Notes under the pieces: generated by a model
Told to the model about the DNA's origin: nothing
Database searches by the model: none
The model's input: only the letters and a program-made list of their open reading frames with translations
Part shown: positions 39,141 through 40,988 of the stretch, piece by piece
Layout of the letters: each line of letters begins with the position of its first letter
Numbering within the stretch: position 1 is the stretch's first letter
NCBI RefSeq assembly: GCF_054482595.1
Contig: NZ_CM137008.1
DNA: 64,000 nt
Direction: 5' to 3' (one strand)
Translations under genes and position numbers: made by a program

Positions 39141-40988
39141 ATGAAAATGACTTTGCCGTTTAAACCCCATGTGCTGGCACTAATTTGCAGTGCCGGGCTT
39201 TGTGCCGCCTCTGCCGGGCTATATATAAAAAGCCGCACAGTGGAAGCGCCTGTGGAACCGCTATCGACACAACTGGCTGTGTCTGACGCTGCCGCGGTTA
39301 CGCTTCCTGCAACGGTTTCCGCACCGCCCGTAACACCCGCCGTCGTTAAATCCGCATTCAGCACTGCACAAATAGATCAATGGGTCGCGCCCGTCGCGCT
39401 ATACCCCGACTCTCTGCTTTCACAAGTGTTAATGGCATCAACCTATCCGGCAAACGTTGCTCAAGCAGTGCAATGGTCGCACGATAATCCACTTAAACAA
39501 GGCGATGCTGCTATTCAGGCGGTATCTGACCAGCCGTGGGACGCCAGCGTTAAATCACTGGTGGCCTTTCCACAATTGATGGCGTTGATGGGCGAAAACC
39601 CGCAATGGGTGCAAAACCTGGGCGATGCTTTTCTGGCGCAGCCGCAGGACGTGATGGACTCGGTACAGCGATTGCGGCAACTGGCGCAACAAACCGGCTC
39701 GCTGAAGTCATCAACCGAACAGAAAGTTATTACCACAACGAAGAAAACTGTACCGGTAACACAGACAGTCACGGCTCCCGTCATACCATCCAATACCGTT
39801 TCAACTGCCAACCCCGTCATTACAGAGCCGGCAACAACAGTCATTTCCATTGAGCCCGCCAATCCTGATGTAGTCTATATTCCCAACTACAACCCAACCG
39901 TGGTTTACGGGAACTGGGCCAATACTGCGTATCCGCCGGTTTATCTGCCACCACCAGCCGGAGAACCGTTTGTTGACAGCTTTGTGCGCGGATTCGGCTA
40001 TAGCATGGGCGTTGCTACCACGTACGCACTATTCAGCAGCATCGACTGGGATGACGACGATCATGACCATCATCATGACGATGATTATCATCACCACGAT
40101 GGCGGTCATCGTGACGGTAATGGCTGGCAACACAACGGCGACAACATCAATATCGACGTCAACAATTTCAACCGTATCACCGGTGAGCATCTTACTGATA
40201 AGAATATGGCATGGCGGCACAATCCAAACTACCGTAATGGTGTGCCCTATCATGATCAGGATATGGCAAAGCGGTTTCATCAAACTGATGTCAACGGCGG
40301 AATGAGTGCCACGCAGCTACCTGCTCCAACACGCGACAGCCAGCGTCAGGCGGCAGCAAGTCAGTTTCAGCAACGAACACACGCCGCCCCCGTCATTACA
40401 CGAGATACCCAACGTCAGGCAGCGGCACAGCGGTTTAATGAAGCTGAACACTATGGGAGCTATGACGACTTCCGCGACTTCAGCCGTCGCCAACCACTGA
40501 CCCAGCAACAAAAGGACGCCGCTCGTCAGCGTTATCAGTCAGCTTCTCCTGAGCAGCGCCAGGCAGTTCACGAGAAAATGCAGACTAACCCGCAGAACCA
40601 GCAGCGAAGAGAGGCAGCGCGTGAGCGCATTCAGCCCGCCTCGCCTGAGCAGCGCCAGGTAGTCCGCGAGAAAATGCAGACTAACCCACAGATCCAGCAG
40701 CGAAGAGACGCAGCGCGTGAGCGTATTCAGTCAGCCTCGCCTGAGCAGCGCCAGGTGTTTAAGGAAAAAGTACAGCAGCGCCCACTGAACCCACAGCAAC
40801 GTGATAACGCCCGCCAGCGTGTTCAATCAGCATCACCTGAACAACGTCAGGTTTTTCGGGAGAAAGTTCAGGAGAGCCGCCCACAACGTCTAAACGACAG
40901 TAACCATACTGCCAGGCTGAATAACGAGCAACGGTCAGCAGTACGCGAACGTCTCTCTGAGCGCGGAGCAAGAAGACTGGAAAGGTAA
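39141..40988 (+). CDS. yacH: DUF3300-type exported protein with His/Asp-rich block and C-terminal tandem repeats
   Basis: 615 aa; signal peptide; DWDDDDHDHHHDDDYHHHDGGHRDG block; about four repeats of the unit ARERIQSASPEQRQVVREKMQTNPQ. Confidence 0.85.
   Translation: MKMTLPFKPHVLALICSAGLCAASAGLYIKSRTVEAPVEPLSTQLAVSDAAAVTLPATVSAPPVTPAVVKSAFSTAQIDQWVAPVALYPDSLLSQVLMASTYPANVAQAVQWSHDNPLKQGDAAIQAVSDQPWDASVKSLVAFPQLMALMGENPQWVQNLGDAFLAQPQDVMDSVQRLRQLAQQTGSLKSSTEQKVITTTKKTVPVTQTVTAPVIPSNTVSTANPVITEPATTVISIEPANPDVVYIPNYNPTVVYGNWANTAYPPVYLPPPAGEPFVDSFVRGFGYSMGVATTYALFSSIDWDDDDHDHHHDDDYHHHDGGHRDGNGWQHNGDNINIDVNNFNRITGEHLTDKNMAWRHNPNYRNGVPYHDQDMAKRFHQTDVNGGMSATQLPAPTRDSQRQAAASQFQQRTHAAPVITRDTQRQAAAQRFNEAEHYGSYDDFRDFSRRQPLTQQQKDAARQRYQSASPEQRQAVHEKMQTNPQNQQRREAARERIQPASPEQRQVVREKMQTNPQIQQRRDAARERIQSASPEQRQVFKEKVQQRPLNPQQRDNARQRVQSASPEQRQVFREKVQESRPQRLNDSNHTARLNNEQRSAVRERLSERGARRLER

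What the first reader, a model, noticed from the sequence alone, without database searches (positions are those of the whole stretch)
39141..40988. YacH: exported protein with a His/Asp-rich block and four tandem ~32-aa repeats
Seen in sequence: DWDDDDHDHHHDDDYHHHDGGHRDGNGWQHNGDN (about 40075-40150) resembles a metal-binding stretch, and the C-terminal third contains about four tandem repeats of ARERIQSASPEQRQVVREKMQTNPQ (about 40500-40900), which at DNA level are near-identical ~96-bp units prone to slippage or recombination. Function of this protein family is poorly defined.
Basis: seen in the sequence. Interest (0 to 1): 0.4.

Follow-up and report, generated by a model that had tools for sequence, protein, structure and literature searches.

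The report
yacH: variable-length exported protein
This is the known but uncharacterised E. coli gene yacH; its His/Asp-rich loop and its 32-residue repeats are real and vary in length between strains, which makes it a curious but ordinary coding repeat polymorphism.

Summary
The ORF at 39141-40988 (+) is yacH, 615 aa. Its only family match is Pfam DUF3300. It lies between acnB and lpdA.

Both observed features are real:
- A 34-residue block with 11 Asp and 9 His lies at 40047-40148.
- Four tandem 96-nt (32-aa) units lie at 40497-40880, followed by a degenerate fifth motif.

Copy number does vary. About 55% of sampled E. coli genomes carry four units and about 43% carry three, from at least two different deletion events. 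Rare alleles carry five. The His/Asp block also varies, with at least five length classes.

All variants seen stay in frame. dN/dS is 0.07-0.14 for the whole gene and 0.08-0.21 for the tail, so the gene is maintained rather than decaying.

The His/Asp block is an Enterobacteriaceae-specific expansion of a 7-residue, often His-bearing loop in the DUF3300 core. Other genera have different tail repeats, with an 18-19 aa period.

In 33 of 33 non-Escherichia relatives, yacH is followed 2-14 nt later by a secreted DUF2950 gene. All five Escherichia loci lack it.

A confident core model has no solved structural relative. Metal binding is plausible but untested.

The parts
39141..40988 (+). yacH coding sequence (615 aa plus stop), a DUF3300-family protein
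   Evidence: ORF list. 100% match to annotated yacH. Pfam PF11737 at E 2e-78, 263 bits against a cutoff of 25.
39141..39227 (+). N-terminal export signal: a Sec signal peptide or an N-terminal membrane anchor (aa 1-29). The hydrophobic core is aa 11-29, with an ASA|G motif at aa 23-26.
   Evidence: It is the only 19-aa window with Kyte-Doolittle hydropathy above 1.6 (value 2.04). AlphaFold models a helix at aa 9-29. 98 of 109 family members have an N-terminal hydrophobic segment. Whether it is cleaved or acts as an anchor is not resolved.
39228..39362 (+). Ala/Val/Pro/Thr-rich low-confidence linker (aa 30-74)
   Evidence: Composition. pLDDT 47-61. dN/dS 0.15-0.39, among the highest of the segments compared, similar to the Thr/Val/Pro-rich loop.
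39363..39692 (+). Eight-helix subdomain of the DUF3300 core (aa 75-184)
   Evidence: pLDDT above 95 in both models. Most of the nearly invariant family columns lie here. dN/dS 0.00-0.06.
39711..39845 (+). Thr/Val/Pro-rich variable loop between two beta strands (aa 191-235). It exists as two strongly diverged haplotypes within E. coli.
   Evidence: Alignment. dS up to 1.19 between the window and L004/L005 in this segment alone. pLDDT 69-76.
39846..40046 (+). Conserved beta-rich part of the DUF3300 core (aa 236-302), including the IEPANPDVVYIPNYNPTVVYGNW motif and ending just before the conserved Trp303
   Evidence: Nearly invariant columns I237, P242, Y246, V247, P248, Y250, P252, Y256, G257, W259, P266 and G290. 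pLDDT 92-95 for aa 231-270, falling to 71-75 for aa 271-300.
40047..40148 (+). His/Asp-rich loop (aa 303-336; 11 Asp, 9 His, net charge -10). It is length-polymorphic and starts at the nearly invariant Trp303.
   Evidence: Sequence. pLDDT below 50. 17 or more sequence variants among the 120 closest protein clusters. Five length classes in a 60-genome spread sample. The family-wide loop has a median of 7 aa; in Enterobacteriaceae it is 19-41 aa. TRF finds a 12-nt period at 40051-40085.
40212..40250 (+). Conserved W-x-H-N-P-x-x-R-x-G-V-P-Y element (aa 358-370) that rejoins the folded core
   Evidence: W358, H360 and R365 are at least 90% conserved across 101 diverse homologues. pLDDT 92-95.
40329..40439 (+). 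Two-copy 23-aa repeat TRD(S/T)QRQAAA..F (aa 397-433), conserved in other genera as RD.QRQAA
   Evidence: Read from the translation. The same motif pair is seen in the orthologue tails.
40497..40592 (+). Repeat unit 1 (aa 453-484)
40593..40688 (+). Repeat unit 2 (aa 485-516). This unit is absent from L002-type three-unit alleles.
40689..40784 (+). Repeat unit 3 (aa 517-548). It is fused with unit 4 in L005-type three-unit alleles.
40785..40880 (+). Repeat unit 4 (aa 549-580), the most diverged unit
   Evidence: 64-69% DNA identity to the other units.
40911..40985 (+). Degenerate fifth half-unit and basic C-terminus (ARLNNEQRSAVRERLSERGARRLER)
   Evidence: EQR motif at aa 596. It aligns with the ...LNSEQRGAAREHLSEHRELRRR termini of Klebsiella orthologues.
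41001..41029 (.). Hairpin between an A-run and a T-run, between the convergent yacH and lpdA genes; a likely bidirectional intrinsic terminator
   Evidence: Sequence. RNA fold -15.9 kcal/mol, z -3.3. The consensus scan did not flag it.

Best explanation
yacH encodes a Sec-exported envelope protein of the DUF3300 family.

**Architecture**
- An N-terminal signal or anchor comes first, followed by a flexible linker.
- Next is a confidently folded core with no solved relative: an eight-helix subdomain plus a small beta module.
- The protein ends in a strongly basic tail (net +15) rich in Gln and Arg.

**His/Asp block**
The block is a disordered surface loop inserted in the core, directly after a conserved Trp. 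Across the wider family this loop is about 7 residues and often reads W-H-H-x-D-V-N. In Enterobacteriaceae it has expanded to 19-41 residues of Asp and His. Its composition is conserved but its sequence is not.

Inferred, not shown: the loop acts as a low-affinity divalent-cation-binding or proton-titratable acidic loop.

**Tail repeats**
The tail is an array of helix-turn-helix units, each helix starting with an S-P-E-Q cap. Such arrays arose separately in different lineages by tandem duplication. The period is 32 aa in Escherichia and 18-19 aa in Klebsiella, Kluyvera, Citrobacter and Atlantibacter.

Inferred from the allele structures: occasional unequal recombination between the 64-80% identical units adds or removes whole units, always in frame.

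**Selection and partner**
Purifying selection keeps the frame and the composition, so unit number is tolerated variation rather than a switch. In other genera the gene is co-transcribed with a secreted DUF2950 partner, and Escherichia has lost that partner. The biochemical role of the pair is unknown.
For: **Identity and family:**

**Export**
- There is a single N-terminal hydrophobic segment.
- Such a segment is present in 98 of 109 homologues, with AXA or lipobox sites.
- PMC4653623 reports signal peptides for both families.

**Fold**
- The core model has pLDDT 85 and pTM 0.83.
- The His/Asp loop has pLDDT below 50.
- Tail helices span aa 455-608, with pLDDT 68-86 over aa 451-540 and about 44-66 beyond.

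**Loop expansion with conserved composition:**

**Lineage-specific tail repeats:**

**Copy-number and length polymorphism, all in frame**
- document the variation.
- Two different three-unit junctions are seen, L002-type and L005-type.
- A five-unit allele exists, P0004.

**Purifying selection**
- dN/dS is 0.07-0.14 for the whole gene, 0.08-0.21 for the tail and 0.03-0.25 for the His/Asp block.

**DUF2950 partner**
- It is present 2-14 nt downstream in 33 of 33 non-Escherichia loci and absent from 5 of 5 Escherichia loci.
- No DUF2950 DNA was found in 5,426 E. coli genomes.
- No Escherichia name appears among the top 120 DUF2950 protein hits.

**The gene is expressed and has a phenotype**
- It is CpxR-regulated and repressed by protamine, and the deletion mutant survives protamine better (PMC9600279).
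- It is down-regulated in a rob mutant (PMC7537768).
Against: - No tool tested metal binding or pH response. An acidic low-complexity loop could serve other roles.
- The signal could be an uncleaved anchor: the hydrophobic stretch is 19 residues, long for a cleaved signal.
- About half of the family members have a second hydrophobic window after residue 60. YacH itself does not, at Kyte-Doolittle 0.78-1.12, so topology may differ across the family.
- Loss of the DUF2950 partner and loss of a family-conserved C-terminal motif (ALSGNDSRSPSW...RG..SR) suggest the Escherichia protein may do less than its relatives, or something different.
- Recombination as the mechanism of unit gain and loss is inferred from allele structures, not observed.
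Confidence: 0.6

Rival explanations
1. Orphan relic. After Escherichia lost the DUF2950 partner, yacH has had little or no function. On this view the indels in the His/Asp block and the repeats are neutral drift in a gene on its way out.
For: - The partner is missing in all five Escherichia loci but present in 33 of 33 other loci.
- Escherichia lacks most of the family-conserved C-terminal motif seen in other genera.
- One strain, E69, carries a 769-bp IS1-like insertion in the gene.
- The deletion mutant is viable and more protamine-resistant.
- YacH is 84-90% identical between Escherichia clades, where AcnB and LpdA are 99-100% identical.
Against: - dN/dS is 0.07-0.14 overall and 0.08-0.21 in the tail, far below 1.
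- 5,372 of 5,425 genomes keep at least 80% of the gene.
- No length variant that was checked breaks the reading frame. Five loci (L001-L005) were translated end to end. The 120 closest protein clusters are 610-662 aa, so none is truncated.
- Across the sampled E. coli rows the match is annotated as a DUF3300 protein. No pseudogene flag appeared in the five loci where flags were shown.
- The gene is under CpxR and Rob control.
Confidence: 0.2
2. Electrostatic switch rather than metal site. The acidic, His-titratable loop (about -10 at neutral pH, nearer zero at acid pH) pairs with the +15 basic tail or with cationic peptides. It would gate the protein's interaction with the anionic envelope.
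For: - The two segments carry opposite net charges.
- Both segments are conserved in composition but not in sequence.
- yacH is repressed by protamine, and its loss increases protamine survival.
Against: - There is no direct evidence.
- AlphaFold gives no confident contact; the loop has pLDDT below 50.
- The reading is not exclusive of metal binding.
Confidence: 0.15
3. Contingency locus. The repeats mutate at high frequency to switch the protein on and off or to vary a surface antigen.
For: Copy number differs among strains. The His/Asp region is built from GAY/CAY codons with a 12-nt periodicity.
Against: - The unit is 96 nt, a multiple of three, so no change shifts the frame.
- The units are only 64-80% identical, with at most 23 nt of exact identity.
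- Alleles are stable within lineages: all sampled K-12 derivatives and O157:H7 strains share one length.
- No frameshifted allele was seen among those checked.
Confidence: 0.03
4. The Gln/Arg-rich tail is a Spy/CpxP/ZraP-type (LTXXQ) periplasmic chaperone module fused to DUF3300.
For: The S-P-E-Q-R-Q helix starts recall LTXXQ motifs (from memory). The gene belongs to the Cpx regulon.
Against: A Pfam scan of the tail alone at E up to 10 lists no LTXXQ or metal-resistance family. It gives only sub-threshold DUF3106 (16.5 bits against 24.3) and RskA_N. There was no PDB sequence hit and no fold hit.
Confidence: 0.04

Closest known systems
Pfam DUF3300 (PF11737), typified by E. coli K-12 YacH (b0117)
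   Same: Full-length match to the family model, 263 bits. The window protein is 96-98% identical to common E. coli alleles. The genomic position between acnB and lpdA is the same.
   Different: The window allele is a minority variant. Its His/Asp block is two residues shorter than the predominant allele; only about 130 of 5,416 genomes are at least 99% identical over this segment.
DUF3300-DUF2950 two-gene module (described as universally co-localised in root-nodule bacteria, PMC4653623)
   Same: YacH is the DUF3300 half. In 33 of 33 non-Escherichia relatives, the DUF2950 gene follows 2-14 nt downstream at the same acnB-lpdA locus.
   Different: Escherichia has no DUF2950 gene at the locus, and none was detectable by DNA search in 5,426 genomes. 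Escherichia YacH also lacks most of a C-terminal motif that is conserved elsewhere.
His/Asp-rich flexible metal-capturing loops and tails of bacterial proteins, such as the ZnuA periplasmic loop and the SlyD and HypB tails (recalled from memory, not tested here)
   Same: A disordered, acidic, His-dense segment in an exported protein. Its composition is conserved while its sequence drifts.
   Different: There is no homology to those proteins. Metal binding by YacH has not been shown. Here the loop sits inside a domain of unknown fold.
Coding tandem-repeat length polymorphisms (VNTR-like) in bacterial envelope proteins
   Same: In-frame units in tandem, with copy number varying among strains between 3 and 5 whole units.
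   Different: The units are long (96 nt) and diverged (64-80%), so change is rare and follows lineages. No paper in the searched library links yacH to MLVA or VNTR typing.
Pfam DUF3106 (PF11304)
   Same: Weak resemblance of the repeat tail, E 0.012 over aa 64-125 of the tail query.
   Different: The score of 16.5 bits is below the 24.3-bit cutoff, so YacH is not a member.

Membership tests
DUF3300 (PF11737) | Match to the family HMM above the gathering score | tested here: met
   263.3 bits against a cutoff of 25, covering aa 75-331 and profile positions 2-227 of 227.
DUF3300 (PF11737) | N-terminal export signal | tested here: met
   Hydrophobic aa 11-29, Kyte-Doolittle 2.04, with no other TM-grade segment. 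98 of 109 homologues have one. Cleavage has not been tested.
DUF3300-DUF2950 operon | A DUF2950 gene immediately downstream on the same strand | tested here: not met
   Only 70 nt and a terminator hairpin separate the yacH stop from the lpdA stop in the window. The partner is absent from 5 of 5 Escherichia loci and present in 33 of 33 others.
Coding tandem-repeat length polymorphism | Head-to-tail units with a constant period | tested here: met
   Four units at exact 96-nt spacing. The lag-32 signal is far above shuffles.
Coding tandem-repeat length polymorphism | Copy number differs among strains of the species | tested here: met
   In a 60-genome spread sample, 33 carry four units and about 26 carry three. 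A five-unit allele is P0004. Two distinct deletion junctions were found.
Phase-variable contingency locus | Repeat changes that shift the reading frame or alter a promoter, with near-identical short units | tested here: not met
   The unit is 96 nt, a multiple of three, with 64-80% identity. The locus is within the coding sequence. No frameshifted allele was seen among those checked.
His-rich metal-binding segment | Dense His with acidic residues in a flexible, exported segment, conserved in composition | tested here: met
   9 His and 11 Asp in 34 aa. pLDDT below 50. Among the Enterobacteriaceae orthologues in which the loop could be delimited (27 of 30 examined), the block has 1-11 His and 5-13 acidic residues at the same site.
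His-rich metal-binding segment | Measured binding of a metal ion | not testable with these tools
   This needs purified protein or peptide, with ITC, ICP-MS or IMAC retention.
LTXXQ / CpxP-Spy-ZraP periplasmic chaperones | Match to the family profile | tested here: not met
   No such family was listed for the tail even at E up to 10.
DUF3106 (PF11304) | Match above the gathering score | tested here: not met
   16.5 bits against 24.3.

The most novel reading that the evidence does not exclude
The DUF3300 core is a new fold. Its conserved Trp/His loop would form a metal or proton sensing site. Enterobacteriaceae would have enlarged that site into a tunable His/Asp antenna. Strain-to-strain changes in loop length and in the number of basic tail units would then adjust how the envelope handles cations and cationic peptides such as protamine. 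In Escherichia this would happen without the ancestral DUF2950 partner.
Probability: 0.1. Interest if true: 0.5.

Novelty: already known. Interest (0 to 1): 0.25.

Why it matters
yacH is one of the remaining E. coli genes with no assigned function. DUF3300 is a very large family, with more than 9,500 clusters at 50% identity, and it has no solved structure.

This work adds three things:
- Both low-complexity segments are length-variable within the species but remain under purifying selection.
- The His/Asp block is an expansion of a conserved core loop.
- Escherichia alone among its relatives has lost the DUF2950 partner.

These points narrow the experiments needed. They do not reveal a new kind of system. 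The repeat polymorphism could serve as a lineage marker, but it is of ordinary type.

Tried and rejected
- **NCBIfam scan:** no family.
- **Pfam scan of the tail alone at E up to 10:** only sub-threshold DUF3106, RskA_N and noise.
- **PDB sequence search:** only His-tag and FLAG-tag constructs and noise, E 0.2 or worse.
- **Word-indexed protein search with the tail:** only YacH fragments, so the 32-aa unit was not found outside YacH.
- **Fold searches:** nothing significant.
  - Full model against PDB by Foldseek: best E 0.36.
- **PDB sequence search with DUF2950:** nothing.
- **Literature searches linking yacH to VNTR or MLVA:** nothing relevant, and hits on "Yach" as a surname dominate. The yacH plus acnB search gave only a sigma-28 SELEX table entry.
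- **A second membrane helix at aa 281-299:** rejected, because Kyte-Doolittle hydropathy is only 0.78.
- **Promoter scan:** no convincing sigma-70 promoter upstream of yacH, and the number of hits equals chance.
- **Model coordinates:** not available to scripts. I could not check whether Trp303 and His360 are neighbours in 3D.
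Full report
**What is at the coordinates**

The ORF at window 39141..40988 (+) encodes 615 aa. It is 100% identical to yacH of E. coli XH990. It matches a gene annotated "yacH: DUF3300 domain-containing protein" in 5,425 of 5,426 complete E. coli genomes.

The gene lies between acnB and lpdA, as in K-12. Pfam gives a single match, DUF3300, at aa 75-331 with E 2e-78. NCBIfam gives none.

A hairpin flanked by an A-run and a T-run lies at 41001-41029. It sits between the convergent stops of yacH and lpdA and folds at -15.9 kcal/mol, z -3.3.

**Checking the observation**

The His/Asp block is WDDDDHDHHHDDDYHHHDGGHRDGNGWQHNGDNI, aa 303-336, nt 40047-40148. It contains 11 Asp and 9 His in 34 residues. 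The rest of the protein has 6.4% D+H, giving P of about 7e-16 for such a window.

The repeats are four units at exact 96-nt spacing, 40494-40877. In protein register they are aa 453-580. A fifth, degenerate EQR motif lies at aa 596. Identities at lag 32 number 72 of 143, against 14.6 +/- 3.4 in shuffles.

Pairwise DNA identity is 64-80%, and the longest exact shared run is 23 nt.

**Variation among strains**

Repeat number is not invariant.

| Measure | Result |
|---|---|
| Gene lengths in an even-step sample of 40 genomes | 1854, 1848, 1758, 1764 and 1815 nt |
| Tail region, 60 genomes | 33 with four units, about 24 with three, 2 more with a differently placed three-unit deletion |
| Five-unit allele | P0004, 648 aa |
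| 45-aa duplication just upstream of the repeats | P0011, 662 aa |
| His/Asp block variants among the 120 closest protein clusters | at least 17, of 15-24 residues |

Protein alignment shows two different events behind the three-unit alleles. L002-type alleles lack unit 2. L005-type alleles carry a fusion of units 3 and 4.

In a 60-genome sample, the His/Asp block shows these length classes relative to the window:
- +6 nt: 48 genomes
- +12 nt: 6 genomes
- -33 nt: 3 genomes
- +3 nt: 1 genome
- window type: 1 genome

The window allele is therefore a minority form. About 130 of 5,416 genomes are at least 99% identical over this segment.

The five loci translated read through in frame. The 120 closest protein clusters are all 610-662 aa.

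**Is the gene decaying?**

No. Nei-Gojobori dN/dS between the window and six other Escherichia alleles:

| Region | dN/dS |
|---|---|
| Whole gene | 0.07-0.14 |
| Helical subdomain | 0.00-0.06 |
| His/Asp block | 0.03-0.25 |
| Tail | 0.08-0.21 |
| acnB and lpdA (neighbours) | 0.01-0.02 |

yacH evolves faster than its housekeeping neighbours, but it is clearly under purifying selection.

**Anatomy**

The only strongly hydrophobic stretch is aa 11-29, with Kyte-Doolittle hydropathy 2.04. An ASA|G motif lies at aa 23-26. The stretch at aa 281-299 is not membrane-grade, at 0.78.

Of 109 diverse homologues, 98 have an N-terminal hydrophobic segment. Many have plain AXA sites, and one has a lipobox.

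AlphaFold2 with a 109-sequence alignment gives the following:
- aa 9-29: a helix.
- aa 30-74: a low-confidence linker.
- aa 75-184: an eight-helix subdomain with pLDDT above 95.
- aa 194-301: beta strands.
- The His/Asp loop: pLDDT below 50.
- aa 358-370: a confident return to the core.
- aa 455-608: helix-turn-helix units, with pLDDT 68-86 over aa 451-540 and about 44-66 beyond.

**The family and the two features in relatives**

DUF3300 is very large, with 9,565 clusters at 50% identity reaching E <= 0.001.

In the family alignment, the segment between the conserved Trp303 and the following I-N-V-N strand has a median of 7 residues. It often reads WHHxDVN. In Enterobacteriaceae orthologues where it could be delimited, the same segment is 19-41 residues, with 1-12 His and 3-13 acidic residues. 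It differs in sequence from genus to genus. The block is therefore a lineage-specific expansion of a core loop, kept for its composition.

The tails of orthologues are also rich in Gln, Arg and Asn, but they carry other repeats. The QNPTAQQQQRRE-type units in Klebsiella, Kluyvera, Citrobacter and Atlantibacter have an 18-19 aa period. A more distant relative has a GSGDARERAREVASNR unit. The 32-aa unit is specific to Escherichia and was not found outside YacH.

**Genomic context**

A scan of one genome per species returned 38 loci. In all 33 non-Escherichia loci, a DUF2950 gene with a clear signal peptide follows yacH after 2-14 nt. These loci include Salmonella arizonae, Atlantibacter, Klebsiella, Raoultella, Kluyvera, Enterobacter, Citrobacter, Buttiauxella, Yokenella, Franconibacter and a Bordetella MAG. 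In most of them the gene still lies between acnB and lpdA.

All five Escherichia loci lack the DUF2950 gene. Metagenomic contigs show the same pairing.

No E. coli genome holds DUF2950-like DNA. None of the top 120 DUF2950 protein hits is named Escherichia. A distant paralogue elsewhere in the genome is not excluded.

The pairing itself was already reported for root-nodule bacteria, together with signal peptides and induction in nodules (PMC4653623).

Escherichia YacH also lacks most of a C-terminal motif, ALSGNDSRSPSW...RG..SR. That motif is conserved in other genera and, in degenerate form, across the family.

**What is published on function**

- yacH is CpxR-regulated. Protamine lowers its mRNA, and the deletion mutant survives protamine better (PMC9600279).
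- It is down-regulated in a rob mutant under butanol stress (PMC7537768).
- Only three papers in the library mention DUF3300. No characterised member was found.

**Most likely mechanism**

Shown:
- The protein is an exported DUF3300 protein.
- The core is folded and has no solved relative.
- The acidic His-rich loop is disordered and lies at a fixed core site.
- The tail is basic (+15) and made of helix-turn-helix units.
- Both low-complexity parts vary in length and stay in frame under purifying selection.

Inferred:
- Units are gained and lost by unequal recombination between diverged units.
- The loop binds divalent cations weakly or titrates with pH.
- The tail contacts anionic envelope components.
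- Unit number is tolerated rather than regulatory.

**Rivals**

| Rival | Main points | Confidence |
|---|---|---|
| Orphan relic drifting neutrally | Partner lost, motif lost, one IS1-like insertion; argued against by dN/dS and near-universal presence of the gene | 0.2 |
| Charge switch rather than metal site | Opposite charges on loop and tail; no direct evidence | 0.15 |
| Contingency locus | Largely refuted by the 96-nt unit, low unit identity and lineage stability | 0.03 |
| CpxP/Spy-like chaperone tail | No profile or fold support | 0.04 |

**Verdict**

This is a known, annotated gene of a known family of unknown function. The most useful new point is that Escherichia carries only the DUF3300 half of a two-gene module that is otherwise constant among its relatives.

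Noticed in passing
window 40989-41058, compared with L018-L050 (for example L020:5597-6370): In Escherichia, only 70 nt and a terminator hairpin separate yacH from lpdA. Every other genus examined has a secreted DUF2950 gene inserted there, 2-14 nt after yacH.
   Followed up: yes
L017:5098-5866 (E. coli strain E69, CP089930.1): yacH is interrupted by a 769-bp insertion with an 8-bp duplication of nt 1099-1106 of the gene. The size and duplication fit IS1. The insert itself was not identified.
   Followed up: partly
window 39711-39845 (aa 191-235), and also aa 40-52: There are two strongly diverged haplotypes within E. coli: KKTVPVTQTVTAPVIPSNTVSTANPVITEPATT and KKVVPVNQPANAPATQSNTVSTSSPVVAEPAPT. 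Local dS reaches about 1.2, against 0.1-0.4 in the flanks. This suggests an imported or very old allele segment.
   Followed up: partly
protein P0011/P0016/P0022 (662 aa), equivalent to window aa 416-461, about nt 40386-40523: An allele found in several complete genomes carries a 45-aa direct duplication (APVITRDTQRQ...LTQQQKDA) just upstream of the 32-aa repeats. It is bounded by the short repeat KDAA/HAAP. This is a third length-variable site in the gene.
   Followed up: partly
E. coli genome hits: Three to five matches to yacH lie on records classed as plasmids rather than chromosomes. They were not inspected.
   Followed up: no
L020:6193-6260 (positions 597-664 of the S. arizonae DUF2950 gene): A stretch of about 65 nt matches, at 82-88%, some 650 places in 465 E. 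coli genomes, mostly on plasmids. Some of these places are unannotated, one lies in a group II intron ltrA gene and one in a JAB-domain gene. This may be a small mobile or repeated element, or chance.
   Followed up: no
window 36189-38939 (-): The mechanical ORF for acnB starts 51 codons upstream of the annotated start. The annotated protein is 865 aa, against 916 aa for the ORF. This is a listing artefact, not a feature.
   Followed up: partly
PDB hits 8w8q_C, 7w0p_R and others against aa 300-340: The natural His/Asp block resembles laboratory FLAG-plus-His tags closely enough to be the best-scoring PDB matches for that segment. This suggests native YacH might bind IMAC resins.
   Followed up: no
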